Shown piece by piece: positions 29,301 to 54,461 of a stretch of DNA of 54,857 nucleotides. The position numbers and the translations under genes are program-made. Location: the IMG/VR virus record IMGVR_UViG_3300037635_001739, positions 1 through 54,857 of that record; one strand, written 5' to 3'. This stretch comes from a virus. Its lineage: Duplodnaviria; Caudoviricetes. Under the pieces are notes generated by a model. It saw nothing but the letters and a program-made list of their open reading frames with translations. It was not told where the DNA came from and made no database searches. Every line of letters starts with the position of its first letter. Position 1 is the stretch's first letter.

Positions 29301-32300
29301 AAAAAAGGTAATGTACTAAAAAGATTCAAGAAAGAGGCTGATCTTGGAGGTAAATCTTTAGACGTAGAAGCTGGAGAAACAGGTTTTGCAGGAAATATAT
29401 CAGGAGACGCTGGTGTTATTAGAAACTTTGCAGATGAAAAGCAAATTGCGCCAGACAAACTTGTAAAAGCATCGAAAGTAATAACCTCTAAAGTTAGAGC
29501 GGACTTAGCGAACATGCTAAAAACTTGGGCTAGCCAAAATAATATAGATTTCGATACATTTAGATTTGGAGATGTAGATGCTAATGCTACTGTTAAAATA
29601 GACGGCAAAGATGTTAAAGTATTAAACGAAGTATTAAAAGAATTATTCCCAGGCGTTGATCCTGAAAAGTTTTTAGATAGTCGTACTATGTTCACCAGTG
29701 GAGAAGCCTCTATTGTTCTAGGTAAATTAGCTGAGAACGATCAAGAATTAATAGAACTATTTATAAATCTTCTGCCTAGAGGGGCGGTAATGCCTAAAGG
29801 CAAGAATAAAGCTGTAGTTAAAGACGATAATTATGGTAAATCTACTAAGCTAGATGGTTCCATATTGAAAAACTTTTACGATAAAGGTACAGAAAGATTC
29901 ACTAAAAAAGCTGGACTTACACCATTTATATTGAAAGATAATATTCGTTACAGTGACGTACACAAAGCTTTTGGAATGGATTCATCCGGTAATAAACTAA
30001 ATTACCAAAGAGCCAAATCTGGGATTGTATTATCTTCTGCTTACAAAATGTTAGGTAAACTAATAATGAATGAAGTTATTAGAACAGACTTAGGGTTAAC
30101 CGCTGAGCAGAAAATGAATGTGGGCGCTGGTAAAAGTGATTTACAATTTAGTAAAAGTGCGAGTGTCCTTGAGGCTTTAAATGTTGAGGGAACTGAAAGT
30201 TTTAGAAATAACTTTTACCATACACGCGAAAAATATAGAAAAGCAGGCCAAGATTTATTAATTGAATTATCTTTTAGGTTTACTCCAGAAGAAGTTAGAG
30301 ATTACATACTGCCTTTAATTTCTGATGTAGACGGCTCTAACTATAAGCAAGAAGCAAGGTTACTTTTTAGAAACAAAACTCATTTTTTTAGAAAACTAAA
30401 AGAGCAAGCAAAAAGTAAATTTGGAGATTACAAGCCTAATCAACGAAGAATATCTGTTGAAGGCGGAGCCGAGTTAAAATTAGCAAAAGTTACTAGCGAA
30501 TATTACCAGGGAGCTTCTTTTATACAAGACATTAAGGCTTTTGTAGGAAATATAAAAGATAGACAAACATTTGCAAAAGAGCAGCAAAAAGGGTTACTTA
30601 AAATAGTTAAAACATTGTCAGAAATTTTAGATGAAACTTCTTCTAAAAAAGGAGGGTTTGATCGTAAAGATTTTGAGAATATATCATTAGGTATATTTGC
30701 TTATTTTAACTATTTAAACACTAAAAATAAGAACGGAATACTTCGTACCTCAGCTGTTCCTACGCAAATGGCTATAATTCCAAGGCTTTTAGGATTTAAA
30801 GATACACCTGTAAAATATATTTACGAACATACTCAAACCGCTTCCGATACATCGGGAGAATTAATGCAATTAGTCTTTAATAAATTTGCGAAAAATCAAA
30901 AATTTGGCAAAAACCCAAATATTGAAAAAGAATTTAAGGAAATTATGGATGGGTATACGGTTGCGTTGATACCAAAAATCTATGATAAATTATTAAATAC
31001 AATAGCTAAAGAAAACGGAGACAGAGAAGGTACTAAAACTAGGAAAGATTACATTAAAAAATTATTGAAGCCAGGAAAAGACGGCATTCCCACTAGGTAT
31101 AAAATACCTGCTTTTGAAAAGCTACTGGAAGAGAACGGGTTAGAACCTTTACAGAATATACTTACGCCTATTGATCAAGCTAATTACGACGCTATCGTAA
31201 ATGGGAGAGAAGCTCAGTTTTCTATAAATAGAGTAGAAGTTACTGAAACCTTAAACAAGGCTAACAATAACGCTAATAATATCAATGCTAAACCTAAAGG
31301 TATAAGTGTTTGGGATTTTGACGATACACTAGCTAAGACTAAAAGTAATGTATTATATACAATGCCCGGGGAAATTAGAATATTCCACGGCGGTGATATA
31401 AAATCAGTCAAAGACATTGCTGGATTTGTATATTTTTCAGAAGATAAAAAACAAGCTGCAGCCTACGCTAAAGGCAATCAAGGAGAGATTAGTAGTTTTA
31501 AGATAGACGAAGCATCTATTGCAACAGAAGATCAAGTGTTTGATGTTATTAACAACTTAGATATTAAGCCAAGAGCTGGTTATGCGGTAGACGAATCTAA
31601 CTTATATGAACTTATTGATCCTAGATTTGAGCAATCATTTTCTAAAAAAGATCTTGAAAAACTAGCAGTAGCGCTTAAAAGAAAAGGAATAAAGGCTGCA
31701 CGATTTACAGATACCAATATTAGCCAAGGTAAAAATGAAGGAAGAGAAACTGAGAACGTTGTGGTATTTGACAAGAAAGTTGTGCAGGAACAAAATAAAC
31801 TAGATGCTGAACAGTTTGCAAAAGAAGGCGATAAGTTAATGGCTGAGGGGGCTGATTTTGACTTTAGTGAATTCAGTAAAGTTGTTAATGGAAGCAAGGG
31901 GCCTTTCTTTGAAAAGGCTATGGCTAGAAATAAAAAGTTTGGAAACAAAAATGTTTTTATACTTACAGCTAGACCGGCAAACAGCGCAAATGCTATACAC
32001 GAGTTTTTAAAAGGTATTGGATTAAACATACCTTTAGAAAATATTACTGGCTTAGCTAATTCATCACCTCAAGCTAAAGCTGATTGGGTTGTAGGAAAAG
32101 CTGCAGAAGGTTATAATGACTTTTATTTTGCAGACGACGCCATTCAAAATGTTAAAGCAGTAGCTAAGGCATTAGAGGTGCTAGACGTTAAGAGTAAGGT
32201 TAGACAAGCGAATGTACAGTTTTCTAAAAGCATGAACAGTGAGTTCAATCAAATGATTGAAAAGAAAAGCGGTATTGATGCTAGAGGTACTATATCTAAA

Positions 32301-35386: not shown

Positions 35387-37249
35387 TTAAGTAATTTCAC
35401 AAGCTCCTCCAGCGCAGGCAAGTTCTCCTGACAAATCAGTTTCGTCATCGTCTTCTTCAATCTTTGCGATGTCAACTAGCCGCAAGGTTTCCATCATTTC
35501 ATTATACTTAGACTCATCTATATCTTCAAAGGGCGCTTGTACATAAGTGCCTCCATTGTAAGGCAATACAGATAGACCGTTATAAAACTTCTTATTATCC
35601 CACATCCATTCACCAATCATATCCCACTCATCTTCTTTAATAGATACAGTAGCAGATATATTGTGTGTGTTCCTGCCATCTCTGTGTCCTGGTTTAACCC
35701 ACATCTCAGATACAAACTTTACCCGCTCTAATAATTCTACAGGGTGCTCTGTTCTAAGCATAGATCCTTTTGGTGCTTTTTGCGGTATAGATATTACAGC
35801 TGTGTCGTGAGGTCTAAAGTATTCATCTTCAACTAACTCAGGATGGTTTTCAGCAAGGAACTTATACATTGACTCGTTCTTACCTACACGTATTCTTCTT
35901 ACATAATAATCATTATGCCAAGCGTGAATACCAGATGACGTTCCTAGCGTCAATGATGTAGTCCCTGCTGGTTTAACCGTTGTCGATCTAGCTGATGGAT
36001 TAATACCTATTAATTTTGCAACACGTTTATTCTCTGCTTTAACAAGTAAAGCCGCTTTATCCATGTCTAATTTTAAAACCTTCCCTGATCCAATTCCTGT
36101 TATTGAAACTCCAATTAAAGCATCTTTTTCTGTTGTAGTTCTCCATATATCTCTAAGATAATGAAAGCTCGTGTACGAGGCTTGTAATGTCCCTATGAGG
36201 GCTGCATTAGTTACACGCCTGTCAAACTCTTCTTGAGTATCTAAGTCCGATCCATTTACTTCACATAAATTACAAAATTGATAAGGTCTAAGTGCAATTT
36301 CACAACAAGGATTAGTACCCCAATCTTTATCATTAGTTAAATAAAAACCTGGCTCACCAGATCCGGATAACTCAATACGTTTCCACAAATCCATAAAGTA
36401 GGACTTAGTAAGCTTCTGTCGCATAAGCACAGCTGAATTATTAGCTCTACCACGCTGTGGATTTTTCTCCCACCAATCTCCTGACTTACAACCAATCATT
36501 TCAACATCATCAGATGAGAATAAAGATATTAAAGCTGCTCTTCTTATTCCTCCAGCTAAAACTGAATCGGCAATGTGACATATAATATCATGTGCTTGCA
36601 CTGTACTTAAGTAATCCCCGTCTTTTAATGAATCCAATATACCTGTTATTTTAACTATAGCTTCTTTAAGAGGTTGTGGTCCAGGTGCTTTACCACCTGA
36701 TGTTACAAGCCTTGCTCCTTTAGCGCGAATGTCAGAATAATCAAAGTCAATTCTAGAACTCCGTTTGTTACCTAAATATGATTTCATTAATACTTTAATA
36801 GCATCGGCCCAGCCCTCAATAGAATCCATAACTAAGAATCTTCTTGTGCGTTTTTCAAACGGCACGGTTACGGATGGCAACTTAGCTACATGATGCTTTT
36901 GCACTGAATAACCCACGCCTGTTCCACCTAATAATAAAAACATTGTTTCGCTAAATGCCGCTACAGATTCTACTGGCAAATAAGCGCAATTATATATCCT
37001 ATTAGGAGATATCTCGATAGGCTTGCCACCAAATTGTAGGCTACGCATGCTTGGTAATATATTTTTGCTATACACATCTTCATAAGCTGCTCTTATTTCT
37101 TTTTCTAAATTTGGAAACTTTTTTATATGCATTGATTCATTTCTAAACACAAGTTGATCCCATGTTTCTCTACGCTTTGTCTCTGGTATATATTTAGCAT
37201 ATTTCATAAATACCGTTATGTCACTTAATATTCTGTTAGATTTGTTCAT
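35387..37249 (-). CDS. nrdJ: Class II (adenosylcobalamin-dependent) ribonucleotide reductase
   Basis: YNCAY, TNPCCEI, CNLCEVN, TTVKPAGT and C-terminal CAGGAC; no beta subunit gene seen. Confidence 0.9.
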   Translation of the reverse strand: MNKSNRILSDITVFMKYAKYIPETKRRETWDQLVFRNESMHIKKFPNLEKEIRAAYEDVYSKNILPSMRSLQFGGKPIEISPNRIYNCAYLPVESVAAFSETMFLLLGGTGVGYSVQKHHVAKLPSVTVPFEKRTRRFLVMDSIEGWADAIKVLMKSYLGNKRSSRIDFDYSDIRAKGARLVTSGGKAPGPQPLKEAIVKITGILDSLKDGDYLSTVQAHDIICHIADSVLAGGIRRAALISLFSSDDVEMIGCKSGDWWEKNPQRGRANNSAVLMRQKLTKSYFMDLWKRIELSGSGEPGFYLTNDKDWGTNPCCEIALRPYQFCNLCEVNGSDLDTQEEFDRRVTNAALIGTLQASYTSFHYLRDIWRTTTEKDALIGVSITGIGSGKVLKLDMDKAALLVKAENKRVAKLIGINPSARSTTVKPAGTTSLTLGTSSGIHAWHNDYYVRRIRVGKNESMYKFLAENHPELVEDEYFRPHDTAVISIPQKAPKGSMLRTEHPVELLERVKFVSEMWVKPGHRDGRNTHNISATVSIKEDEWDMIGEWMWDNKKFYNGLSVLPYNGGTYVQAPFEDIDESKYNEMMETLRLVDIAKIEEDDDETDLSGELACAGGACEIT

Positions 37250-38775: not shown

Positions 38776-38786
38776 AGGGTTTTGTT

Positions 38787-42181: not shown

Positions 42182-42184
42182 AAA

Positions 42185-42608: not shown

Positions 42609-42609
42609 A

Positions 42610-46398: not shown

Positions 46399-46685
46399 CG
46401 ATCTAGTTGGTATATTAGATTATTAATTACTTCTCTTGAAACATATCCAGCAACCATATCGCCATGACAATTTATAAACTGAGGAGTAATGAACTCACCT
46501 TTAATATCCAGTAATGCGACTTCAAATGCAGTATATGAATACAGCTCTAGATCATTCTCACGAGGTATAGAGTATAAACCCTCACCCGCTTGAATGCTTA
46601 TGGTTACTTTACTTTTAGTTTTTAGCACGGATCCAATACCACCGTGCGTCTGTTTTCTGAATCTTAAATCATCAAATGTTATCAT
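46395..46685 (-). CDS. Hypothetical protein
   Basis: 96-aa ORF in operon. Confidence 0.6.
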   Translation of the reverse strand: MITFDDLRFRKQTHGGIGSVLKTKSKVTISIQAGEGLYSIPRENDLELYSYTAFEVALLDIKGEFITPQFINCHGDMVAGYVSREVINNLIYQLDR

Positions 46686-46695
46686 AGTTTTAGTT

Positions 46696-47301
46696 TTAGT
46701 GGAATATTAATCCAATTTTATTATTAGTGTTATACCATTTAGTCGCTTTTAGATCATACTCACTGCTATCGATATAGCCAGCACTGTTGAGATCGTCAGC
46801 AGAGCTAAAAATTCGGGTGTGACGGTCGGTTTTTTCATTGATTAAATGTTTTTGTTTACCTGAGTCGCTGTATATAATGTCATAGTTATCAGGCAGTTGT
46901 ACTTCTTTAGTTAATTGTACCATATTGGTATAAGAATAAAACTTAACATCTGGATTATCTTTAGCAATTTGAATCCATTTGTTTAAGTATGCACGGCTGT
47001 AATAATCGCCACTATCATGTACTCTTACAAAGTCAGGTTTCTTACGTCTGATCTCATCATTCATGGTTGGTATGAATTCATCAGTTTTACTTAACTCATA
47101 TCGCTTTTCAAAAGCGGGTTGGACGTTGGACCAAATGTAAGCGCCTTTCTTAGCATAACAGAACTTAACACACTCATCAGCCATAGGACAAGTAAGCTTA
47201 CCTGATGCAGATTTGTACGCGGGAATACCGAAGTTCATTAGCTTAACACCGAAGTATTTACTAGTCTTTTTGATTTTAGAATTTTGTGTAAGTAAGTTCA
47301 T
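46696..47301 (-). CDS. Gp88-like protein (radical-SAM-like Cys motif)
   Basis: TCPMADECVKFCYA...VRVHDSGDYY...FYSYT. Confidence 0.7.
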   Translation of the reverse strand: MNLLTQNSKIKKTSKYFGVKLMNFGIPAYKSASGKLTCPMADECVKFCYAKKGAYIWSNVQPAFEKRYELSKTDEFIPTMNDEIRRKKPDFVRVHDSGDYYSRAYLNKWIQIAKDNPDVKFYSYTNMVQLTKEVQLPDNYDIIYSDSGKQKHLINEKTDRHTRIFSSADDLNSAGYIDSSEYDLKATKWYNTNNKIGLIFH

Positions 47302-47319
47302 ATTGTTATTATTTAGTTA

Positions 47320-47352
47320 TATTATCTTTATAGTTACGTATTCTATCTGCAA
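47320..47352 (-). promoter_or_regulatory. Class 1 phage promoter TTGCA-N5-AAYACG-N10-GATAATA
   Basis: One of 4 intergenic copies with identical spacing; upstream of ATG 47301. Confidence 0.75.
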
Positions 47353-47418
47353 CTAGACATCATCCATCCAAAGCCATATAGCCAAGGAAATCATAGCTAA
47401 TACTATTCCTATTAACAT
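47353..47418 (-). CDS. Possible 21-aa membrane peptide
   Basis: MLIGIVLAMISLAIWLWMDDV*; start overlaps the upstream stop. Confidence 0.4.
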   Translation of the reverse strand: MLIGIVLAMISLAIWLWMDDV

Positions 47419-47675
47419 TAGTCTAGTAGTACCATGTAAGCTTCCGGATTTGTTTTGCGGAACCAACTACATGCTTTGTTAAATTGGTTAATAAGTTTGT
47501 TATCTCTGTTGGTGTACATTACTACTTCGCATCCTTTTATGAAATCATACATAGATAACTCTAGGTTATTTAATCTTATAGATTCTCCAGAAAACGGGTT
47601 TTCCACATCAGCGCCATGGGGATATAACTTACCCCCACCTTTAGTAAACCATTTAGGTAATTCTTGATCTTTCAT
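47418..47675 (-). CDS. Hypothetical protein
   Basis: 85 aa (NPFSGE...ELSMYD...WFRKTNPEAYMVLLD). Confidence 0.7.
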   Translation of the reverse strand: MKDQELPKWFTKGGGKLYPHGADVENPFSGESIRLNNLELSMYDFIKGCEVVMYTNRDNKLINQFNKACSWFRKTNPEAYMVLLD

Positions 47676-47676
47676 A

Positions 47677-47904
47677 TTATAGTTTTGTAAAATTAAAGTT
47701 TAAAGTTTTTATTATGGTATTTATAAAGTTACCGGCTGAGGGGGCAGCTCTTAGTCCTTCCCATACAAATTTGGGTACGTCGTAATAGTCATAAGCATAG
47801 CCGTTAGTAAACATTACAAATAATGTTTTAGTTCTGTGGTAGTACGTCGCATATTGGATCGCACTGGATTCGACAATAAAGTCTTCTTTTAGTATTGTAC
47901 TCAT
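47677..47904 (-). CDS. KTSC-domain protein
   Basis: VESSAI...Y...TLFVMF.NG..YDYYDVP...L..APSAGNFIN..IK. Confidence 0.85.
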   Translation of the reverse strand: MSTILKEDFIVESSAIQYATYYHRTKTLFVMFTNGYAYDYYDVPKFVWEGLRAAPSAGNFINTIIKTLNFNFTKL

Positions 47905-47907
47905 AGG

Positions 47908-48390
47908 TTATTCGAATTGCGAAGCGCAGGTGTATAGCACTTCTTTGTTAGTATTAGCACAGTGTGCTTTCTCATTAATATAATAGTTACGGTATGCAGC
48001 AACAGAATCGTTTTCAACTTTGTATTCATCAGGCATACATTGAGGCATTTCAGTAGGACCAATATTAAATATAGGACCGGGTGTTTGTGACAATACGTCG
48101 CGACATTTAGCTATAGTTAAGTGTTCTTTACCATAACGCTTTTTGTATTCTTCACCAAGAGCCATCATGTGAAAGTACAACCAAGCGTAATTAGATCTTG
48201 ATGTTCGTACCCACACGGCAGATGGATGGTTTTTATGCGTTAACTTGTAAGGAACATCGATTTCACTGTCAAGCATTATATGTGCAGAACAGAGTAGTTG
48301 AGCTGACTCAAGGATCATTTTAACAACGTGCTTGTTGTATTGTAATTGTGCAGCACGCTCAGGGTCGGAGTTTAAATAAAATATATTCAT
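47908..48390 (-). CDS. Pyrimidine-dimer DNA glycosylase (DenV/Pyr_excise-like)
   Basis: MNIFYL..DP..AA....KHVVKMILESAQLL...THKNHPSAVW...EYKKRYGK.H. Confidence 0.8.
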   Translation of the reverse strand: MNIFYLNSDPERAAQLQYNKHVVKMILESAQLLCSAHIMLDSEIDVPYKLTHKNHPSAVWVRTSRSNYAWLYFHMMALGEEYKKRYGKEHLTIAKCRDVLSQTPGPIFNIGPTEMPQCMPDEYKVENDSVAAYRNYYINEKAHCANTNKEVLYTCASQFE

Positions 48391-48395
48391 ACAGT

Positions 48396-48428
48396 TATTA
48401 TCTTTAGAGTTACGTATTTAGTCTGCAA
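48396..48428 (-). promoter_or_regulatory. Class 1 phage promoter
   Basis: TTGCA-GACTA-AATACG-N10-GATAATA; ends 5 nt before ATG 48390, so the transcript may be nearly leaderless. Confidence 0.75.
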
Positions 48429-48429
48429 C

Positions 48430-49008
48430 TTAAACAGTTGGTTTTGGTAATGGATTATCAGGATCGATATTTAATTGCTCTTTAGTAAGAGTTATTTGAT
48501 CCAGTAACTCATTGTATTTACCATCATCATTGTGGCGCATTATAGCTTCCTGACACATATCTAACATACGTACTACTTTAATTGGCCAGGCATAACCGGC
48601 TTCAATCAAATTATTTTCAACTTCGGCGTATACATCGTCGTATACTGTTTCACACATATCTTCGATAGCCTCGTTGATCGTAGCTTCTTCGTCGCAGTAT
48701 ATAGACAGACCGTTGCGTATAGCATCTTGTACTTCGCTAACAATATAGGTATTGTGTTCGGAGTAATAAACATCCTCAGCAATGTTTATACTATTAGGAT
48801 TGTGTGTACATATCCATACAGAATAGCCATCACGTGTAGATTCTTCATACACATATAGATCTTGATCAGTCCAGTGGTCGTCAACACGTGCACCGTAATG
48901 ATCTAGCACAAGTTGTTTGAAGTCACCATCTTGTTCGCTTATTTGTTTTTCGCTAAAGCCTAACTCGTGTAGCTTAGCTTCCATTAATTCAGGGGTAATT
49001 AGTTTCAT
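48430..49008 (-). CDS. Acidic hypothetical protein
   Basis: 192-aa ORF downstream of a class 1 promoter. Confidence 0.7.
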   Translation of the reverse strand: MKLITPELMEAKLHELGFSEKQISEQDGDFKQLVLDHYGARVDDHWTDQDLYVYEESTRDGYSVWICTHNPNSINIAEDVYYSEHNTYIVSEVQDAIRNGLSIYCDEEATINEAIEDMCETVYDDVYAEVENNLIEAGYAWPIKVVRMLDMCQEAIMRHNDDGKYNELLDQITLTKEQLNIDPDNPLPKPTV

Positions 49009-49033
49009 ATTTATTATATTTAAAGGTTTATTA

Positions 49034-49066
49034 TATTATCTTTTGGTTGTCGTGTTCTGTCTGCAA
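49034..49066 (-). promoter_or_regulatory. Class 1 phage promoter
   Basis: TTGCA-GACAG-AACACG-N10-GATAATA. Confidence 0.7.
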
Positions 49067-49125
49067 AGAATGACTTATCATACCTTATCGGGTATAATAC
49101 GGGTTAATGTATCATATATTATACC

Positions 49126-49449
49126 CTATTGGGTATGAGCATTATCTTGCAGTATATCGATAGCGCGATCAAAGCCTACGCCCGTGTAACCAGACCTACC
49201 TGGTAACATTGATAAATTAGTGTTATTAAAATTATCAAGTGCATCAAGTATGTACTCGTATATTTCTTTTTCTTTTTGTTCGCTATCAAGTATTAATCGC
49301 TGTTCTTCTTCAGTTATACCGCCATATATTCTATTTTTTAACGCTTTTTTAGCATCTTCAATAGAGAACATAATGTTTACCAGTTTGGCTTCGATCTTGT
49401 CGGTGGCCAAAGTGTGTATAGCAGGGTAGAAATTATTTTCTTCATTCAT
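49126..49449 (-). CDS. Hypothetical protein
   Basis: 107-aa ORF with A-rich leader. Confidence 0.6.
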   Translation of the reverse strand: MNEENNFYPAIHTLATDKIEAKLVNIMFSIEDAKKALKNRIYGGITEEEQRLILDSEQKEKEIYEYILDALDNFNNTNLSMLPGRSGYTGVGFDRAIDILQDNAHTQ

Positions 49450-49725
49450 AGGTTTATTTGTTATTATTTTGGTTAATAATTTGTAAAATTTGGTTGAAGT
49501 AGCGATCTGCTAATTCGTCAGTTTCGTAATTCATAATATTATTTATTTAGTTGTTAAAAATTTTATATATTAAGTATATACTACTTATATATGATATTGT
49601 TATCGTTAGTATTATTATTGTATCCATAGTTATTTATTTAATTGGTTTTAATAATATTTTCAATACACCCGCGTTATCATGGGTTATCGCCCGTAGCCTA
49701 AAAGGTTAACGAGTGTATTGATTAG

Positions 49726-49835
49726 TGGATAGCGGGGGAATCGAACCCCCATACTTTTTAGTAGTAAGTGCTTCAGGTCTCTGGCTTTGAACAGTATTCA
49801 AAGGTGCTTGTACCAATAGCGCTCCATACCTATCC
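49726..49835 (-). ncRNA. Oversized tRNA-like RNA (~110 nt)
   Basis: 5' GGATAG pairs with 3' CTATCC-A; perfect T-arm GGGGG-TTCGATT-CCCCC; D-like loop with GG; hairpin CTTTGA-ATACTGT-TCAAAG. Confidence 0.6.
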
Positions 49836-50098
49836 GATCGTAGACATTTGCTAGCAGCTTAAAGAAAGCGCTCGGTTATTTATTCGCTACGATAATGTGT
49901 GGCTGGTTTCTTCTTAAGACATTTAATAAACACTAATCCCAGTGTATCACCACTTAATATTTTATGTACTACACGGCAATGTACATTGATCACATTTTCG
50001 CCGAACCACAAAGGGCTGTGAACTAACTAATAAATAATAAACTATAGGGTTATTTGCGTATAGCATACGCCGCCGCCCGGGCACAGTCAGTTAAAAAT

Positions 50099-50290
50099 TT
50101 ATTTAATTTCTTCATATTCATTTATTGATTCGGTTAATGTATTCATTCGTCTTCTTAAGTACTTAAGATCTATCTCGCTAATAATGTTATCAGGGTTAGC
50201 TAATATGTCTTTGGTTATGTAGTCTAATAAAAACTTACCGCGATAAACAGATTGTAGTAATGTAGTGTATTCTTTAGTTGTAATTTGCAT
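50099..50290 (-). CDS. Hypothetical protein
   Basis: 63 aa; AACTATG start; downstream of a class 1 promoter. Confidence 0.6.
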   Translation of the reverse strand: MQITTKEYTTLLQSVYRGKFLLDYITKDILANPDNIISEIDLKYLRRRMNTLTESINEYEEIK

Positions 50291-50315
50291 AGTTATATTA
50301 TTTTAAATTCATATA

Positions 50316-50348
50316 TATTATCTTATGTAGTACGTATTCAAATTGCAA
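50316..50348 (-). promoter_or_regulatory. Class 1 phage promoter
   Basis: TTGCA-ATTTG-AATACG-N10-GATAATA. Confidence 0.75.
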
Positions 50349-50350
50349 CG

Positions 50351-50542
50351 CTATAGATCTTTCTTGCGTATCCAGGTTAAACCTTTGTAATTGAACCACT
50401 TAGTTATACCGTCTCGATCTTCAGCGTCGTCGTATATATAGGCAAACTTGTTTGGTAGGTTAGCTAGATCGAAGCCAACGTGAATATCACCGTTTAATTT
50501 TAACTCTTTTTTAGTGCGTGAGAATTTTATAGTATTTTCCAT
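50351..50542 (-). CDS. Hypothetical early protein
   Basis: 63 aa; AAACTATG start. Confidence 0.65.
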   Translation of the reverse strand: MENTIKFSRTKKELKLNGDIHVGFDLANLPNKFAYIYDDAEDRDGITKWFNYKGLTWIRKKDL

Positions 50543-50545
50543 AGT

Positions 50546-50884
50546 TTATTTTAGTTCTTCGTTAATAATGTCTTTGAATTTATTAGATACTCTGAGTTCA
50601 ATTAATTTTTCGGCTTCGGTACATACATCCTTTTGAAGTTTATGAAGTTTATCTTCACCATATAGTTTAGTATATAGATCGCGGAATCCCTCGGATTTAA
50701 CGGGTTCACCGTTTAATAGCCAATCAATTTCACAATCCATAGCGTCAGTTTTAAAACCACCATCTTTTGTTGGATATACGTAAGTATATACAGTTATATT
50801 TGCGGATATTAGAGAATCGACGTGTATAGCAACGTTAGCGTTAACGTTAAAACTTATATAGTCATTTAAGTGTACTGCTTTCAT
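50546..50884 (-). CDS. Hypothetical early protein
   Basis: 112 aa; AAACTATG start. Confidence 0.65.
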   Translation of the reverse strand: MKAVHLNDYISFNVNANVAIHVDSLISANITVYTYVYPTKDGGFKTDAMDCEIDWLLNGEPVKSEGFRDLYTKLYGEDKLHKLQKDVCTEAEKLIELRVSNKFKDIINEELK

Positions 50885-50887
50885 AGT

Positions 50888-51094
50888 TTATTTATTTAAA
50901 GTGTTTATAATATTTTTTATAGTTTTATTAGTAATTAATTCTAGCATGTCATAGTAGTCGTCGCCATCAAGGTCGATGCCTGCATATTCCAGTTGATGAC
51001 TTATAGTATAAACCATATAATCTATGGTTACTTCAGCGATTTGTTGCGCTAAAATACCTGCGTTGTTGGATAATTGCTCGTTAGTTGTAGTCAT
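50888..51094 (-). CDS. Hypothetical early protein
   Basis: 68-aa ORF in a tightly packed operon. Confidence 0.6.
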   Translation of the reverse strand: MTTTNEQLSNNAGILAQQIAEVTIDYMVYTISHQLEYAGIDLDGDDYYDMLELITNKTIKNIINTLNK

Positions 51095-51218
51095 TATATT
51101 CGTTCATTACATTAGAAATTTGTTCTTTAGTTAGTGACCAATAGCTGATACCTGGGTATAGTCGGTCGGCGATTTGAAACATTTGTGTTGCGCTCATAGT
51201 TTTATTAGTTTTATAGGT

Positions 51219-51410
51219 TTATAATTCTTCAGTTAAGTGATCAAGGGCTAATTGGTAGCCATAGTTTTTTGCCATTTGCATTAGTAAAAAGTCGTTTGTA
51301 CCGTTATTTGCTTTAGCGAAGGCTTCTAGGTAATTTTCGGTTGGCGTGGCAACAATACCACGATCTAACATTTGTTGTTTGGTTGATATAAAGTCTTGTA
51401 TAATTTTCAT
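51219..51410 (-). CDS. Hypothetical early protein
   Basis: 63 aa; AAACTATG start. Confidence 0.6.
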   Translation of the reverse strand: MKIIQDFISTKQQMLDRGIVATPTENYLEAFAKANNGTNDFLLMQMAKNYGYQLALDHLTEEL

Positions 51411-51649
51411 AGTTTTATTGAGGTTTTAGGGTTAAAAAATTGCATTTTAGGTCGTATTTCATCTAGTATAACACCACATGGATCAGTTAATTGATGGTAG
51501 CACTGATCAAAACAGTCGCTTAAGTATTTAACTTGCTCAGGTGTGAATGGTGGATCAATTTGAGTGAGATCATCTTCAGGGTGAACAAAGGGGTAAAGGT
51601 GTTGCATTGTAGTTAAAAACTGAATGGCTTGGTTTTTTGTAGTAATCAT
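51407..51649 (-). CDS. Hypothetical early protein
   Basis: 80 aa; AAACTATG start; downstream of a class 2 promoter. Confidence 0.6.
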   Translation of the reverse strand: MITTKNQAIQFLTTMQHLYPFVHPEDDLTQIDPPFTPEQVKYLSDCFDQCYHQLTDPCGVILDEIRPKMQFFNPKTSIKL

Positions 51650-51683
51650 AGTTTATAGTATTTATTATTATTAATTTCAGTAT

Positions 51684-51706
51684 TATTATATATTATATGT
51701 CGTTTT
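51684..51706 (-). promoter_or_regulatory. Class 2 (early) promoter AAAACG-N10-TATAATA
   Basis: One of 6 intergenic copies with identical spacing. Confidence 0.7.
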
Positions 51707-52005
51707 TAATATTTCGCTCTAATTTGGTCAGCACTACAATATGCCCACATTACTTTGTTTATGAAGGACACACGGTCAACCGATTTTTGCTCGATCGGAA
51801 AGGTGTATAGCATGGTTTCATAAAATTCCATTAGTCCGGGGTCATTATCGGCATAGTTGTGTTTGAATACATCGTATTCGTCACCTTGCATGAAACTCAT
51901 ACCGAGTATTTTATAGTCTTCGTTGTATTCTAGGTATATCCACCGATCATTCTTTTCACACCAAATGTGTTCTACTTTAGTTACTTTATTATTCTTCATA
52001 TTCAT
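51706..52005 (-). CDS. Hypothetical early protein
   Basis: 99 aa; AAACTATG start. Confidence 0.65.
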   Translation of the reverse strand: MNMKNNKVTKVEHIWCEKNDRWIYLEYNEDYKILGMSFMQGDEYDVFKHNYADNDPGLMEFYETMLYTFPIEQKSVDRVSFINKVMWAYCSADQIRAKY

Positions 52006-52008
52006 AGT

Positions 52009-52170
52009 TTAATTATTTTTTATTTTAGTTCTTGCAGTATTCACCGCTTCCATTCTTAACTTGTAAGTGTCTTCGGTTATACAACCGTCTAGTTCGATAG
52101 CTTCAAGGTGTTCTTCCATGTGATCGAGTGCTACCAAGATCACATTTTGTTCATAGTTACTCAGTTTCAT
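52009..52170 (-). CDS. Small early protein (53 aa)
   Basis: MKLSNYEQNVILVALDHMEEHL...; fills the gap between neighbours. Confidence 0.6.
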   Translation of the reverse strand: MKLSNYEQNVILVALDHMEEHLEAIELDGCITEDTYKLRMEAVNTARTKIKNN

Positions 52171-52173
52171 AGT

Positions 52174-52452
52174 CTACTTATTTTGACAGTTTTTAAGGTC
52201 GAAGTTGTATAGCATACGTAGTCGATCTAGTCCGTTAGGTACTAATGTTCTAGTGTAATAGTAGTTATCACGGTTTTTATTATAGTGTTTAACTTTAGTG
52301 TTAATTTGGTAGAGTTTTACACCACGTCTTCTGAAGTGTGGTTGATCTTTGCAACTCACTCTAACGTAACCGGACTTGTAGGTGTAACCTAATCGACCGT
52401 CACTCATTTCACATTTAATTGTACCGTTTTTACTGATGTTTAATACTTTCAT
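52174..52452 (-). CDS. Basic hypothetical early protein
   Basis: 92 aa; AAACTATG start. Confidence 0.65.
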   Translation of the reverse strand: MKVLNISKNGTIKCEMSDGRLGYTYKSGYVRVSCKDQPHFRRRGVKLYQINTKVKHYNKNRDNYYYTRTLVPNGLDRLRMLYNFDLKNCQNK

Positions 52453-52484
52453 AGTTTATTATATTTAATTATTATTATTTACTT

Positions 52485-52507
52485 TATTATATATTTATTA
52501 TCGTTTT
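52485..52507 (-). promoter_or_regulatory. Class 2 promoter
   Basis: AAAACG-N10-TATAATA. Confidence 0.7.
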
Positions 52508-52509
52508 TA

Positions 52510-52665
52510 TTATATTATATTTAACTCCATTAATATGGATTCTTCTATATCTTCTTCAAGAAACATGTCACTATCATATTCTAGTTTCATAGTTTCTATT
52601 AATTCTTCTATCTCCCGTAATCTACCGGGATATTGTAGTTCGATTTGACTTTGTATTCTATTCAT
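52510..52665 (-). CDS. Small acidic early protein (51 aa)
   Basis: MNRIQSQIELQYPGRLREIEELIE... Confidence 0.5.
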   Translation of the reverse strand: MNRIQSQIELQYPGRLREIEELIETMKLEYDSDMFLEEDIEESILMELNII

Positions 52666-52834
52666 ATACTGTTTCTATTAGGTCATTTACTAAGTCTTCT
52701 TCAGTTTCCCCGTCTTCCGGTATACAGTCAAGTTCTACAAATTCTTTAATTCTTTGTTCGATCTTTTCTCTACCTTCATAGAAAGATTCGAATTTAAAGT
52801 GTTGCACCGTTTCTTCATTCCAATTGTACTTCAT
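52658..52834 (-). CDS. Small acidic early protein (58 aa)
   Basis: MKYNWNEETVQHF...PEDGETEEDLVNDLIETVYE*; AACTATG start. Confidence 0.6.
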   Translation of the reverse strand: MKYNWNEETVQHFKFESFYEGREKIEQRIKEFVELDCIPEDGETEEDLVNDLIETVYE

Positions 52835-52848
52835 AGTTATAGTTTTAA

Positions 52849-52989
52849 TTAATTAATAAATTCTTGTTCTTTAGCGTATTCTAGAGTATTTATAGCGATT
52901 TCTATATCGTCAGAGATCGGTTGACAACCCAATTCTTCGGTTGCATTCATACACATAGTTAATAAAGTTTTAATTTCAGAGTAATTCAT
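52849..52989 (-). CDS. Small early protein (46 aa)
   Basis: MNYSEIKTLLTMCMNATEELG...; AACTATG start. Confidence 0.55.
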   Translation of the reverse strand: MNYSEIKTLLTMCMNATEELGCQPISDDIEIAINTLEYAKEQEFIN

Positions 52990-53024
52990 AGTTATTATAT
53001 TTATAGTTATTAATTATTTAAATT

Positions 53025-53047
53025 TATTATATATTTATAGTCGTTTT
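53025..53047 (-). promoter_or_regulatory. Class 2 promoter
   Basis: AAAACG-N10-TATAATA. Confidence 0.7.
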
Positions 53048-53316
53048 TGTTATTTTACTTTGTGACAAGGCATTTGTAGTCACTTGTAAACACTTATATT
53101 CTCTTATTACCTAAAATAATTCTTTAAATACTGTAGTTTTACCCAAAAGTACGTAATTATAATAGTATTTATAAAAAACTCTAGTTATTAGTGTAACTTT
53201 ATTAGTATAGTTAAATTATAGTACACTACTAATAGAGAGTGTCTTCACTCTACTATCTTAAGTTTTAAACAACTATACTTTAGTTTATTACTTAAATTAC
53301 TCTAATGGGAACCGTT

Positions 53317-53532
53317 TTAACAACAATTACATCGATCCCACTCTTTACCGTTTCTACATGTTTCACCTAAGACTTCTAAATCTAAGAATTCACGGTGATA
53401 AAACTCTATTAACTCTGTTGTAGTGAACTTCTTCCTCCACTGGGTTGTCTGTTCGATCCAGTGATAGTCACCGCATTTCTCTACATTTCCGTCATTCATC
53501 CATTCTAACATTTCTTTAGTTACTTCATACAT
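53317..53532 (-). CDS. Hypothetical early protein with Cys-rich C-terminus
   Basis: 71 aa ending TCRNGKEWDRCNCC. Confidence 0.65.
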   Translation of the reverse strand: MYEVTKEMLEWMNDGNVEKCGDYHWIEQTTQWRKKFTTTELIEFYHREFLDLEVLGETCRNGKEWDRCNCC

Positions 53533-53573
53533 AGTTATATTATTTAATTATTAGTATTTATTAATTTCAATAT

Positions 53574-53596
53574 TATTATATATATTCTATCGTTTT
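53574..53596 (-). promoter_or_regulatory. Class 2 promoter abutting a GTGTATAGCA box (53597-53606)
   Basis: Contiguous GTGTATAGCA-AAAACG-N10-TATAATA. Confidence 0.7.
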
Positions 53597-53731
53597 TGCT
53601 ATACACACGTACTCTGTTTTGCGGTGGAATCTCGATCTTTTTAGCTAAAATACGGTGATTTTGACTAAAGAACATAGGTATGCTATACACGCGGTGTAGA
53701 TTACCGCATGTTACAGTCCGTTTTGGACTAC

Positions 53732-53863
53732 CTAGCCAATAATTAATTTATGGTGGTAGTCTCTGGCATACTCAATCATGCCCTCATCTGTAATATTACC
53801 CAGTAAATACTGGTTTAAGTTGTCAATCATAGCAATAGTTTCAATTTTGATCTGGTTATCCAT
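53732..53863 (-). CDS. Small early protein (43 aa)
   Basis: MDNQIKIETIAMIDNLNQYLLG... Confidence 0.45.
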   Translation of the reverse strand: MDNQIKIETIAMIDNLNQYLLGNITDEGMIEYARDYHHKLIIG

Positions 53864-53913
53864 AGGTATAGCATTTTAAGTTATTAATTATTAATTATTA
53901 GTTGGGCAAAAGC

Positions 53914-54231
53914 CTACTTTTCAGTAGACTTCTGTTCAACAATCTCAGCTAGATGTCTAACTGTGCTCGGTAGGTTAGTACTCTGCGACCAGTATTTGCG
54001 CTTAATCCAGCAGGCTTGCAGTTGTAGCTTAGGGAGCATAGCATTTAGTATTGTATCATGATTATAAGTAACTTTTTGATTTTTATTATTTATAAAAGTT
54101 ATTATTTGATTTCTACCGAGCCAACTTTCTCTCACTACAAAGTTTTTTCTTACAAGTGGCGGCCAGATTGCTGCTTTTTCTTTGTTTGACATTGTTTTTA
54201 GTGCTTTTTGCATAATTTCATTTGTGTTCAT
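53914..54231 (-). CDS. Hypothetical early protein
   Basis: 105 aa (RKNFVVRESWLGRNQIITF); downstream of two class 2 promoters. Confidence 0.7.
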   Translation of the reverse strand: MNTNEIMQKALKTMSNKEKAAIWPPLVRKNFVVRESWLGRNQIITFINNKNQKVTYNHDTILNAMLPKLQLQACWIKRKYWSQSTNLPSTVRHLAEIVEQKSTEK

Positions 54232-54278
54232 AATTTTTAGTTTTTAGTTTATTATTATTATTTAGTTATTTATATATA

Positions 54279-54301
54279 TATTATATTATATATATCGTTT
54301 T
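54279..54301 (-). promoter_or_regulatory. Class 2 promoter
   Basis: AAAACG-N10-TATAATA in an extremely AT-rich tract. Confidence 0.65.
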
Positions 54302-54391
54302 AGTTATTTTATATAAATTAATTAAATTTATTATTTTATTTTTTATAATTATTTTAATTATATTAATTATATTTATTATTAACTACATTTA

Positions 54392-54414
54392 TATTATATT
54401 TATAGTATCGTTTT
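54392..54414 (-). promoter_or_regulatory. Class 2 promoter abutting a GTGTATAGCA box
   Basis: Contiguous GTGTATAGCA-AAAACG-N10-TATAATA. Confidence 0.7.
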
Positions 54415-54461
54415 TGCTATACACAATGCTATACGCATTTGCCCACAAAAATGCTATACAC
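54415..54461 (-). repeat. Cluster of three GYGTATAGCA boxes
   Basis: TGCTATACAC 54415-54424, TGCTATACGC 54427-54436, TGCTATACAC 54452-54461. Confidence 0.85.

What the first reader, a model, noticed from the sequence alone, without database searches (positions are those of the whole stretch)
31991..54461. Strongly over-represented 10-bp motif GYGTATAGCA, enriched toward the early end and embedded in coding sequence
Seen (manual count, may be incomplete): + strand at 45469, 47930, 48715, 49414, 50056, 50822, 51803; - strand at 31991, 37066, 53597, 53681, 54415, 54427, 54452. Core GTATAGCA near-matches lie at about 22852, 41390, 46378, 52207 and 53866. A given 10-mer is expected well under once in this window. 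From 45 to 52 kb the copies share one orientation, are spaced roughly 0.4-1.6 kb apart counting near-matches, and sit in unrelated genes. Orientation flips near 53.6 kb, where two copies abut early promoters. No exact copy was noticed in the first 31 kb. Inference: a cis-acting DNA signal, such as binding sites for a phage or ejected protein on first-entering DNA, programmed nick sites as in T5/phiKMV/tf, or replication/recombination polarity sites.
Basis: partly seen in the sequence, partly recalled or inferred. Interest (0 to 1): 0.8.

Follow-up and report, generated by a model that had tools for sequence, protein, structure and literature searches.

The report
Likely programmed nick sites in phage
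A ten-base word scattered through this marine phage's early genes is most likely the place where the phage cuts one strand of its own packaged DNA, a long-known but unexplained habit of a few phages, seen here in a new and abundant uncultured group.

Summary
GYGTATAGCA occurs 14 times (7+/7-) against 0.18 expected, and the excess survives a codon-preserving shuffle. It is the most enriched strand-specific 10-mer in a family of ~60-kb uncultured marine phages whose nearest cultured kin infect Flavobacteriia.

There are two site classes:
- Single perfect copies antisense to early and replication genes, in all three frames.
- Tandem copies on the other strand just upstream of the outermost early promoters.

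Site positions turn over between distant relatives but are conserved between close ones. Sampled host-class genomes are not enriched, which argues against a Chi-like signal. The HTH protein proposed as binder has the same recognition helix in relatives that lack the motif.

The key evidence is that 8 of 178 distinct contig ends of family members start exactly at TGCT^ATACRC, always on the 5' side and never on the other half. That points to a fixed strand break after base 4, as in phage tf (TACT/RTGMC). A small basic protein ("gene X"), whose Cellulophaga phage homologue is annotated as structural, co-occurs with the motif.

Best reading: programmed nick sites, confidence about 0.6. This is a new variant of a known, unexplained kind.

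The parts
45469..45478 (+). Single GTGTATAGCA copy, antisense inside the HTH gene (44984-45607, -). Predicted break on the - strand between 45475 and 45474 (TGCT^ATACAC).
   Evidence: The homologous site in relative G004 is where contig L027 begins.
47930..47939 (+). Single copy, antisense near the 3' end of the 160-aa gene (47908-48390, -). Predicted - strand break between 47936 and 47935.
   Evidence: Intact at the same place in 3 of 4 orthologues.
48715..48724 (+). Single copy (GCG variant), antisense in the 192-aa gene. Predicted - strand break between 48721 and 48720.
   Evidence: Intact at the same place in 2 of 5 orthologues.
49414..49423 (+). Single copy, antisense near the 5' end of the 107-aa gene. 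Predicted - strand break between 49420 and 49419.
50056..50065 (+). Single copy (GCG variant), intergenic. Here it forms part of a 6-bp-stem, 3-base-loop palindrome. Predicted - strand break between 50062 and 50061.
   Evidence: Conserved in G001.
50822..50831 (+). Single copy, antisense in the 112-aa gene. Predicted - strand break between 50828 and 50827.
   Evidence: Intact at the same place in 2 of 2 orthologues.
51803..51812 (+). Single copy, antisense in the 99-aa gene. Predicted - strand break between 51809 and 51808.
   Evidence: Intact at the same place in 2 of 3 orthologues.
53597..53606 (-). Promoter-proximal copy. It sits where relatives carry the -35-like block of the family promoter, 13 nt before the ACG block. 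Predicted + strand break between 53600 and 53601.
53681..53690 (-). Upstream partner copy, 84 bp from 53597, preceded by a GC hairpin. Predicted + strand break between 53684 and 53685.
54415..54461 (-). Array of three tandem copies (54452, 54427, 54415; spacing 25 and 12 bp) directly upstream of an early promoter. Predicted + strand breaks after 54455, 54430 and 54418.
   Evidence: Homologous arrays in relatives are where several contigs begin.
53568..53596 (-). Core of the early promoter after the 53597 copy: an AAAACGATA block, then TATAAT 16 nt after the motif.
   Evidence: family tripartite promoter
54386..54414 (-). Core of the early promoter after the 54415 copy, with the same architecture.
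31991..32000 (-). Isolated copy, antisense in the 2633-aa late gene. Predicted + strand break between 31994 and 31995.
   Evidence: Intact at the same place in 3 of 22 orthologues. G002, G003 and G004 each carry an antisense copy in the giant gene, with near-identical flanks in G002 and G003.
37066..37075 (-). Isolated copy, sense in the ribonucleotide reductase gene; this is an exception to the polarity rule. Predicted + strand break between 37069 and 37070.
   Evidence: Intact at the same place in 2 of 41 orthologues.
22850..22859 (+). Near-match ACGTATAGCA (core only), sense in a late gene.
41388..41397 (+). Near-match ATGTATAGCA, antisense in the primase-helicase gene.
   Evidence: One contig (L253) begins with the matching variant half, ATACAT.
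46376..46385 (+). Near-match ATGTATAGCA, antisense in the 115-aa gene.
52205..52214 (+). Near-match TTGTATAGCA, antisense in the 92-aa gene.
53864..53873 (+). Near-match AGGTATAGCA, intergenic. The homologous site in G001 is an exact copy.
47677..47904 (-). 75-aa KTSC-domain gene that co-occurs with the motif: present in 5 of 6 motif-bearing genomes and 0 of 5 motif-free genomes. Its role is unknown.
35387..54686 (-). Leftward early and replication arm: RNR, MazG-like, ThyA, primase-helicase, exonuclease, Erf, sigma factor, HTH, then small ORFs. It carries 13 of the 14 exact copies.

Best explanation
GYGTATAGCA, read on the other strand as TGCT^ATACRC, is the recognition and cleavage site of a phage-specified site-specific nicking system. 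In virion DNA the strand that reads TGCTATACRC is interrupted after its fourth base, leaving a fixed 5' end at ATACRC.

Shown:
- The word is strongly enriched, also under a codon-preserving null.
- It is the top strand-specific 10-mer of a large phage family.
- Isolated copies are perfect, polar, lie in any reading frame, turn over in position between distant relatives and are conserved between close ones.
- Assembled contigs of relatives end at exactly this phosphodiester, only on the 5' side, at both single and tandem sites.

Inferred:
- The break is a single-strand nick rather than a double-strand cut. The argument is that end-repair preserves a 5' end but not a 3' end (established enzymology).
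- It is made by a phage protein.
- The small basic 'gene X' protein is the nickase or its specificity factor. Gene X is the first rightward gene next to the tandem arrays, and it lies in the part of the genome missing from this window.
- The tandem copies at the outermost early promoters are also cut. As arrays with a 12-bp period that abut or replace the -35-like block, they probably also bind the same protein and affect those promoters.

The biological purpose of the breaks is unknown here, as it is in T5, phiKMV-like and LUZ24-like phages.
For: - Enrichment: 14 against 0.18 expected. Codon shuffle: 10 in ORFs against a mean of 0.49 and a maximum of 4 in 500 runs.
- Family: in 80 loci (1.35 Mb) around the primase gene there are 156 copies antisense to the primase direction against 32 sense, with no conserved flanks. 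TGCTATACAC is the top word, 147 against 1.4 expected.
- Selection: between G000 and G001, 9 of 12 and 14 of 19 aligned sites are identical, against about 26% of all aligned 10-mers. At long range the same positions hold the motif in only 1 of 52, 1 of 80, 2 of 41 and 3 of 22 orthologues.
- Breaks: of 178 distinct contig ends, 6 start ATACAC and 2 start ATACGC; every other hexamer occurs at most twice. One more end has these bases after the 7 bases CCGATCT, one starts with the variant ATACAT, and 0 start AGCA.
- Seven of these end-contigs have spanning homologues, and 62 of 63 of those carry TGCT just before.
- Of 21 metagenome contigs holding the flank of the proximal site, 18 span it, 2 begin exactly at the cut and 1 has the 7-base prefix.
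- Known nicked phages show the same hallmarks. tf has 14 nicks in TACT/RTGMC, cut after the fourth base. Rembedalsseter has 13 nicks in WACTRTGAC; the motif is enriched in 60 relatives, concentrated in one genome part and 88% inside CDS.
- Gene X: all 10 genomes that have it (G001-G005, G314-G318) carry 2 to 22 copies. Of 9 genomes without it, 8 carry 0 and one carries 2.
- Its model shows two helices, a beta-hairpin and a short helix, with invariant D53, D55, H56, N67 and R68. The nearest Pfam-bearing ESM Atlas clusters are HNH_3 and HNH, with scores 0.92 and 0.91 and 182 and 183 shared features.
Against: - No physical measurement exists. Contig ends are indirect, and the library types behind them are unknown.
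- A third set of loci gave 0 of 64 ends at the motif.
- Known nicked phages carry all sites on one strand and have no tandem arrays. Here two groups lie on opposite strands, and arrays sit at promoters, which by itself looks like an operator.
- Gene X has no Pfam family, no PDB sequence match and no fold match (Foldseek 0 hits; best VIA Z 3.4). The HNH likeness is a lead only.
- Its homologue in Cellulophaga phage phi38:1 sits in a genome without the motif.
- The gene X association is confounded by phylogeny.
- The motif shares a 7-base run with a transposase adapter end (recalled), so an artefact had to be considered. It is judged unlikely because the bases after ATACRC are genomic, and one end carries what I recall to be a ligation-adapter tail.
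Confidence: 0.6

Rival explanations
1. The motif is only a binding site for a sequence-specific phage or host regulator, with no cleavage. Tandem arrays act as operators or activator sites at the outermost early promoters. Single perfect sites act as polar roadblocks or as a sink.
For: - Arrays of 2-3 copies with a 12-bp period lie 2-17 nt upstream of the -35-like block, or exactly in its place, in every genome inspected that has arrays.
- Array copies are more degenerate than singles, as expected for cooperative binding.
- In 80 gene X loci the arrays lie within about 250-2700 bp of gene X.
Against: - It does not explain contig ends at one phosphodiester inside the motif at both single and array sites.
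- It does not explain the uniform polarity of single copies in ORFs.
- The one clear DNA-binding candidate in the window, the HTH protein, has the same recognition helix in motif-free relatives.
- Binding and nicking by one protein are not mutually exclusive.
Confidence: 0.15
2. The sites are double-strand cleavage or packaging sites (cos/pac-like, terminase with or without an HNH helper), so the contig ends are true genome termini.
For: - Sharp contig ends, most of them at the array site nearest gene X.
- Many contigs stop within about 600 bp of that site.
Against: - Ends occur at several different sites, including intragenic singles (L027, L075).
- Only the ATACRC side is ever seen: 8 of 178 ends against 0 of 178.
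- No fixed second terminus exists downstream. Contigs stop 78, 153, 232 and 256 nt past the site.
- With 9 to 22 sites per genome, the sites cannot all delimit a unit genome.
- Records with direct terminal repeats (G003, G004) have their ends elsewhere.
Confidence: 0.07
3. The word, read as TGCTATACAC, is a promoter element (extended -10-like) for the phage sigma factor (44017-44769) or another polymerase. It would drive transcription leftward in the early arm and rightward from the arrays toward the late genes.
For: - In that orientation most copies point along local transcription.
- The phage encodes a sigma factor.
- Some phage late promoters are single short words (recalled).
Against: - There is no conserved partner element or start context around 152 distinct sites.
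- Sites are not enriched just upstream of gene starts: 5.7% within 60 nt against 9.8% for random positions.
- The sigma factor is present in 5 of 5 motif-free genomes, which show no substitute word.
- A separate tripartite promoter already precedes early-arm genes in both groups.
- It does not explain the contig ends.
Confidence: 0.05
4. The word is a host-dictated polar signal (Chi-like, or translocase-orienting) that the phage copies to protect or orient its DNA.
For: - The distribution is polar and dispersed, with the orientation converging near 53 kb.
- That orientation would fit the Chi rule if a DNA end lay there (inference).
Against: - In 301 genomes of the class of a Flavobacteriales MAG the 10-mer occurs 0 to 42 times, close to the backwards control.
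- In 81 of those genomes the 8-base core occurs 4 to 222 times, again close to control.
- 29 of 80 related loci, and 5 of 5 fetched whole genomes of gene X-free relatives, have no copy.
- The true host is unknown, so these are 'not found in those searched'.
Confidence: 0.03
5. The signal acts in RNA. Early mRNAs carry UGCUAUACAC, and leader or trailer RNAs of the outermost units carry two or three complementary copies, allowing 10-bp pairing that regulates or cleaves early transcripts.
For: - Both classes lie on the transcribed strand of the same arm in complementary sense.
- A KTSC-domain gene co-occurs with the motif. Pfam's description of that domain as possibly RNA-binding is recalled.
Against: - G005 and G314 carry copies on one absolute strand through both arms, which does not fit a transcript-based rule.
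- No Rfam family is found in the window.
- It does not explain the contig ends.
Confidence: 0.03

Closest known systems
Localized single-strand interruptions of LUZ24-like (Bruynoghevirus) Pseudomonas phages: tf (TACT/RTGMC) and Rembedalsseter (WACTRTGAC)
   Same: - A 9-10-base asymmetric word, about 9-14 per genome.
- Enriched across a whole phage group while nucleotide similarity is low.
- Concentrated in one part of a genome with two convergent gene sets.
- Mostly inside coding sequence at any position.
- Cut after the fourth base, and even the local pattern T-N-C-T^R-T is shared.
(Passages and section 3.9 read.)
   Different: - The word, phage group and host phylum differ.
- Here there are two groups of sites on opposite strands and tandem arrays at early promoters, where tf and Rembedalsseter have all sites on one strand.
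- The nicks here are inferred from contig ends, not measured.
- No gene X homologue was found in Pseudomonas phages by tblastn.
Phage T5/BF23 nicks
   Same: Sequence-associated nicks in virion DNA, made late in infection, with unknown function. Two late genes (sciA, sciB) are implicated. This comes from the tf paper's discussion and the search-listing abstract of PMC10644984.
   Different: - T5 has a short, degenerate consensus (R/GCGCRGG) that also occurs un-nicked, plus major and minor nicks.
- All T5 nicks are on one strand.
- The phage is unrelated, with long terminal repeats.
phiKMV-like phage nicks (CGACxxxxxCCTA/CTCCGG)
   Same: Canonical nicks at a consensus sequence. They are repaired early in infection and reappear late (tf paper passages).
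   Different: There are about four sites per genome, with a long bipartite consensus, on the non-coding strand of a one-directional genome.
Chi / KOPS-type polar host sequences
   Same: A short, asymmetric, dispersed word whose orientation converges on one point.
   Different: Those words are abundant in the host chromosome. This one is at background level in the 301 and 81 genomes searched and is absent from sister phages.
Direct-repeat operator arrays of small phage regulators (for example P2 Cox boxes; recalled, not tested)
   Same: Head-to-tail repeats about one helical turn apart that cover a promoter.
   Different: Such systems have no perfect isolated copies spread through ORFs and no strand breaks in the site.

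Membership tests
Phage genomes with localized, sequence-specific single-strand interruptions | A physical break in one strand at defined sites (denaturing gel, primer extension, ligase repair, or strand-specific long-read coverage) | tested here: inconclusive
   Only indirect evidence. Of 178 distinct contig ends, 8 start at TGCT^ATACRC, one more does so after a 7-base prefix, and 0 hold the other half. 2 of 21 metagenome contigs begin at the cut.
Phage genomes with localized, sequence-specific single-strand interruptions | All breaks share a short consensus, cut at a fixed position | tested here: met
   Every such end begins at the fifth base of the word. Spanning homologues carry TGCT before it in 62 of 63 cases.
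Phage genomes with localized, sequence-specific single-strand interruptions | Sites confined to one DNA strand | tested here: not met
   Relatives G005 (11:0) and G314 (7:0) meet it. The window (7:7), G001 (10:12), G002 and G004 have a second group, the promoter arrays, on the other strand.
Phage genomes with localized, sequence-specific single-strand interruptions | Motif enriched across related phages, unevenly placed along the genome, mostly inside genes | tested here: met
   51 of 80 loci carry it. Density is 2-4 per 10 kb upstream of the primase gene and 0.3-0.8 per 10 kb downstream. 115 of 150 sites are inside ORFs.
Phage genomes with localized, sequence-specific single-strand interruptions | A phage-encoded nicking function | tested here: inconclusive
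   Gene X co-occurs with the motif: 10 of 10 genomes with it carry copies, against 1 of 9 without it. It has a beta-beta-alpha core with invariant D-x-D-H...N-R. No nuclease family was recognised. The ESM Atlas result is a lead to HNH only.
Chi-like host recombination hotspot | Strong over-representation in the host chromosome | tested here: not met
   The 10-mer occurs 0-42 times per genome in 301 genomes, and the 8-mer 4-222 times in 81 genomes, both near the control. The host itself is unknown.
Operator of the window's HTH protein (44984-45607) | Binder specificity tracks the presence of the site | tested here: not met
   The recognition helix (S-x-R-T-I-H/Y-R-N-M) is conserved alike in motif-bearing and motif-free loci. 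The gene is present in 34 of 51 motif-bearing loci and 20 of 29 motif-free loci.
HNH / beta-beta-alpha-metal nucleases (for gene X) | Recognisable HNH profile or fold with catalytic His and metal ligands | tested here: inconclusive
   Pfam gave 0 families, Foldseek 0 hits, and the best VIA Z was 3.4. The model has a hairpin plus helix with invariant D55-H56 and N67. The nearest Atlas clusters with a family are HNH_3 and HNH.

The most novel reading that the evidence does not exclude
The breaks are not only a packaging by-product but a bipolar priming and insulating device. In the window and its closest kin, the 3'-OH ends at single sites point leftward, along early and replication transcription. 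Those at the promoter arrays point rightward, toward gene X and the late genes. Nick-primed strand-displacement synthesis would therefore leave a boundary near 53 kb in both directions. No DNA polymerase gene was seen in the window or, in G001, in the region the window lacks. The array nicks lie in the template strand just upstream of each outermost early promoter, where they could stop read-through. A small basic protein, annotated as structural in a cultured relative, would make or hold these breaks.
Probability: 0.12. Interest if true: 0.85.

Novelty: new variant of a known kind. Interest (0 to 1): 0.66.

Why it matters
Site-specific nicks in phage DNA have been known for about fifty years (T5) and still have no accepted function. 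The nicking enzyme is unidentified in the LUZ24-like and phiKMV-like groups.

If the reading here is right, it adds three things:
- A third or fourth independent lineage: abundant, uncultured marine phages whose nearest cultured kin infect Flavobacteriia.
- A new, longer and cleaner word, with an unusual two-strand layout tied to early promoters.
- A concrete candidate protein whose presence tracks the motif.

It also shows that contig ends in public assemblies can reveal such breaks without any wet-lab work. That would make a survey across viromes possible. It also explains why assemblies of this family tend to break next to the early promoter region.

Tried and rejected
- Virion RNA polymerase promoter: the 2633-aa protein has no PDB sequence match and no D-x-D-x-D motif. 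The crAss-like phi14:2 preprint (passages read) reports no common motif for its early promoters.
- Second motif: GGCAACGTAGGTAT in G312 and G002 turned out to be a coding repeat of tail-fibre genes.
- Substitute motif in motif-free relatives, or in distant gene X loci: none was found beyond the shared promoter word.
- Elemovirus, the nearest cultured genome plan: no copy in the 34,000 of 61,691 bases fetched.
- Terminal repeat in G001: its two ends are a 96-98% identical overlap, which looks like an assembly wrap and not a defined end.
- tRNA or Rfam element near 50056: ARAGORN and Rfam were both negative.
- Gene X against an annotated Elemovirus HNH gene: no similarity.
- Longer fused forms of gene X carry only DUF6973.
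- KTSC protein as a probe for relatives: no loci were returned.
- Literature: the motif words matched only unrelated papers. A search combining nicks with Flavobacterium or Cellulophaga phage returned none of them among the 12 listed of 950. I therefore found no prior description in these two searches. Supplements were closed and were not seen.
- Sequencing runs: 24 were listed, all held as contigs, so none could show read starts.
- Adapter artefact: the motif shares a 7-base run with a transposase adapter end (recalled). I rejected this because the bases following ATACRC are genomic and match relatives.
Full report
**1. Observation**

Dinucleotide-preserving shuffles give 0.18 on average and never more than 2. 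The pattern read backwards occurs 0 times.

Permuting synonymous codons within each strand's genes, which keeps proteins and codon usage, gave a mean of 0.49 copies in ORFs and a maximum of 4 in 500 runs. The observed number is 10, of which 2 lie in a doubtful 48-aa ORF.

The seven + strand copies between 45 and 52 kb lie in or between genes that are all on the - strand. They are therefore antisense to those genes, and they fall in all three frames. The signal is in the DNA (or RNA), not in a peptide.

**2. Setting**

The window is a viral record, linear and estimated 86% complete.

- Positions 60-35236 carry + strand structural genes. These include the large terminase, the portal, a 2280-aa protein with crAss-muzzle and DUF285 matches, and a 2633-aa protein of unknown function.
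- Positions 35387-54686 carry - strand genes: ribonucleotide reductase, a MazG-like protein, thymidylate synthase, primase-helicase, a PDDEXK exonuclease, Erf, a sigma factor, an HTH protein, and then about 25 small ORFs.
- No DNA or RNA polymerase was found. In the closest relative, G001, the part missing from the window holds a tail spike, GroEL and a holin.
- The nearest cultured relatives all infect Flavobacteriia. The primase is 44.5% identical to that of Cellulophaga phage phi10:1, and the terminase 46% identical to that of Flavobacterium Elemovirus.

**3. Family**

The primase gene retrieves 147 related viral contigs, of which the best 80 were kept. In those 80 loci (1,346,863 bases, oriented with the primase on +) the word occurs 156 times antisense to that direction and 32 times sense. 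Nothing is conserved outside the ten bases.

Under a third-order Markov model TGCTATACAC is the most enriched strand-specific 10-mer, at 147 against 1.4 expected, in the 51 loci that have it. The other 29 loci have none, and no substitute word appears in them. Density is highest upstream of the primase, at 2-4 per 10 kb, and lower downstream, at 0.3-0.8 per 10 kb.

Whole genomes G001-G005 carry 9 to 22 copies.

**4. Two classes of site**

(a) Single copies are nearly always the perfect GTG form (95%). They are dispersed, never closer than about 300 bp to one another, and mostly inside ORFs.

(b) Tandem copies number two or three and are often 12 bp apart. They are more degenerate (GCG forms, or the core only). 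They lie on the opposite strand in the intergenic regions of the outermost early units.

The family's early-arm promoter is tripartite: TTACAA or TTGCAG, then N5, then ATACGA, then N9, then GATAATATA. It occurs in motif-bearing and motif-free genomes alike. This recalls the tripartite, host-polymerase middle promoters of Cellulophaga phage phi14:2 (passages read).

- In G002 and G004 the tandem copies end 2-17 nt upstream of the first block.
- In the window and G001 the proximal copy sits exactly where that block would be, 13 nt before ACG.

In 80 loci around gene X (section 7) the arrays lie about 250-2700 bp upstream of that gene. The single copies lie further out on the other strand, and almost none lie in the 6 kb of late genes downstream.

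Relative to the absolute strand, the single copies are uniform. In G005 (11:0) and G314 (7:0) they run through both arms on one strand.

**5. Evolution of the sites**

Between the window and G001 (about 80% identity in aligned parts), 9 of 12 aligned sites are identical, and 14 of 19 in the reverse comparison. Only about 26% of all aligned 10-mers are identical.

At longer range the positions are not kept. The motif is intact at the same codons in 1 of 52 orthologues of the HTH gene, 1 of 80 of the primase, 2 of 41 of the reductase and 3 of 22 of the giant gene.

So the word, its number and its polarity are maintained, while individual places are not. The same was reported for the nick-associated motif of LUZ24-like phages (section 3.9 of PMC11780129).

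**6. Not a host word**

A MAG that holds a close thymidylate synthase has 37 copies, but they lie on small contigs that are binned phage fragments.

- In 301 genomes drawn from the class of a Flavobacteriales MAG, the 10-mer occurs 0-42 times per genome, close to the backwards control.
- The three genomes I re-searched from among the highest scorers show only scattered single copies.
- The 8-base core occurs 4-222 times in 81 of those genomes, again near control.

The real host is unknown, so this means 'not found in those searched'.

**7. Who reads it**

Its recognition helix is the same in both groups. The sigma factor is also present in both groups.

I compared six motif-bearing with five motif-free whole genomes. 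Only two genes are confined to the former:

- A 75-aa KTSC-domain protein (47677-47904), present in 5 of 6 against 0 of 5.
- 'Gene X', a 97-aa very basic protein. It is the first rightward gene next to the arrays, at 2627-2920 in G001. That region lies just beyond the window's end. Gene X is present in 5 of 5 against 0 of 5.

I then extended the sample.

- Five more genomes with diverged gene X (46-62% identical) carry 7, 5, 2, 8 and 15 copies.
- Four more genomes without gene X carry 0, 2, 0 and 0 copies. The gene X profile search on them used G001 as a positive control, which scored E 2e-39.
- The first five motif-free genomes carry 0 copies.

Properties of gene X:

- It belongs to a very large family of small marine proteins with no Pfam domain.
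- Its AlphaFold model (mean pLDDT 71) has two helices, a beta-hairpin and a short helix.
- D53, D55, H56, N67, R68 and G72 are invariant in 39 sequences.
- I read that as a possible beta-beta-alpha-metal core. That is my inference. Neither Pfam, PDB sequences, Foldseek nor VIA-align supports it.
- The ESM Atlas places HNH_3 and HNH clusters nearest among clusters that have a family (0.92 with 182 shared features, and 0.91 with 183). This is a lead only.
- Its homologue in Cellulophaga phage phi38:1, gp080, matches with hhalign probability 98% and E 2e-13. That gene is annotated as a structural protein. phi38:1 itself lacks the motif.

**8. The breaks**

While inspecting why many contigs stop just upstream of gene X, I saw that several begin inside the motif. 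The counts over all contig ends in three sets of loci, 178 distinct ends in total, are as follows:

- 6 begin ATACAC and 2 begin ATACGC.
- No other hexamer occurs more than twice.
- One further end has ATACAC after the seven bases CCGATCT. I recall these as the tail of the Illumina ligation adapter, which would mean many fragments started there.
- One end begins with the variant ATACAT.
- None begins AGCA, which would be the other half of the word.
- From base composition, about 0.1 ends are expected to begin ATACRC.

By set, the first gave 7 of 57, the second 2 of 62 and the third 0 of 64.

Two of the ends (L027, L075) are at intragenic single sites. The rest are at array sites at various distances from gene X.

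Seven end-contigs have spanning homologues, and TGCT stands immediately before the start in 62 of 63 of them. The only spanning homologue of an eighth end-contig (L241) did not show TGCT immediately before; I attribute this to an alignment offset. Three end-contigs had no spanning homologue.

A scan of metagenome contigs for the flank of the proximal site found 21 contigs. Of these, 18 span it (all with TGCT before the start), 2 new ones begin exactly at the cut, and 1 is the adapter-prefixed one.

The break therefore lies after the fourth base of TGCT^ATACRC.

Only the 5' side is sharp. This is what end-repair of a nick predicts, because a 5' end is kept while a 3' end is extended or trimmed. 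That is established enzymology applied by inference. A double-strand cut should give both halves.

**9. Comparison**

- Phage tf has 14 nicks, all in one strand, in TACT/RTGMC, 'always after the fourth position'. Of these, 11 lie in one half of a genome with two convergent gene sets (passages read).
- Rembedalsseter has 13 nicks in WACTRTGAC. The word is enriched in 60 relatives, concentrated in one genome part, 88% inside CDS and mostly on the coding strand. Its function is unknown.
- T5 and phiKMV-like phages are the other known cases. In T5 two late genes are implicated, and nick-less mutants are viable.

The present case shares every sequence-level hallmark, including the position of the cut. 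It differs in three ways. It has a second group of sites on the other strand. Those sites are arranged as arrays at the outermost early promoters. It also offers a candidate protein.

**10. Mechanism and limits**

- Shown: enrichment, family conservation, polarity, turnover with short-range constraint, promoter-linked arrays, and contig ends at one phosphodiester.
- Inferred: that the ends reflect nicks in virion DNA; that a phage protein makes them; and that this protein is gene X, which would also bind the arrays.
- Not explained: why the arrays are on the other strand; the isolated exceptions at 31991 and 37066; the role of the KTSC gene; and the purpose of the breaks.
- One geometric note, which is inference only. 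In the window the 3'-OH ends at single sites face leftward, along early transcription. Those at the arrays face rightward, toward the late genes. G005 and G314 do not follow this pattern in their late genes.
- The main weakness is that no read-level or physical evidence could be obtained.

**11. Verdict**

The most likely explanation, at about 0.6, is a programmed nicking motif of a new phage lineage. This is a new variant of a known but unexplained kind.

Noticed in passing
window 47318, 49032, 50314 (- strand) and many sites in relatives: A conserved tripartite promoter precedes many early-arm genes in both motif-bearing and motif-free relatives: TTACAA/TTGCAG, N5, ATACGA, N9, GATAATATA. The window and G001 also have a variant with AAAACGAC and no first block.
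   Followed up: partly
window 49640-50050 (- strand), T-arm-like hairpin at 49734-49750: An ORF-free 650-bp stretch holds a GGGGGTTCGATTCCCCC hairpin followed by an acceptor-like 3' strand, so it looks tRNA- or tmRNA-like. ARAGORN and Rfam call nothing there.
   Followed up: partly
window 8641-8654 and 11358-11371: TATAATATT lies 5 nt before the ATG of two probably highly expressed structural genes, and the same arrangement occurs in G001 and G003. It may be a late promoter or a leaderless start signal.
   Followed up: no
window 26349-34250 and 15233-22075: Two giant virion-module proteins. The 2633-aa one has no Pfam or PDB match. The 2280-aa one has DUF285 repeats and a weak crAss muzzle C-terminal match. 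No DNA polymerase gene was seen in the window or, in G001, in the region the window lacks.
   Followed up: partly
L090 1-1472 versus G001 61193-62841: The two ends of relative G001 overlap by about 1.6 kb at 96-98% identity. This looks like a circular or redundant genome assembled across strain variants.
   Followed up: yes
G006 (MAG reached through L109): This Bacteroidetes MAG has 37 motif copies, nearly all on contigs of a few hundred to a few thousand bases, some in tandem. They look like fragments of this phage family binned with a bacterium.
   Followed up: partly
NC_021796.1 (phi38:1) 11965-33983: phi38:1 has its own strand-specific word, TTGATAGTGT (10 copies against 0 on the other strand). 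Most copies lie in stretches without a called ORF, in the region where the called ORFs are on the - strand; at 19234 the word sits directly upstream of an ATG on that strand. It is probably an expression signal, not an analogue of the motif.
   Followed up: partly
window 47908-48390 (- strand): A 160-aa protein with a weak match to pyrimidine-dimer DNA glycosylase (T4 endonuclease V family) and a strong match to a PHROG 'DNA binding protein' family. It is present in 5 of 6 motif-bearing and 2 of 5 motif-free genomes, and is a second, weaker nuclease candidate.
   Followed up: partly
gene X loci L212-L284: About 23 of 80 contigs stop within 650 bp upstream of gene X, so assemblies of this family break preferentially at the array region.
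   Followed up: yes
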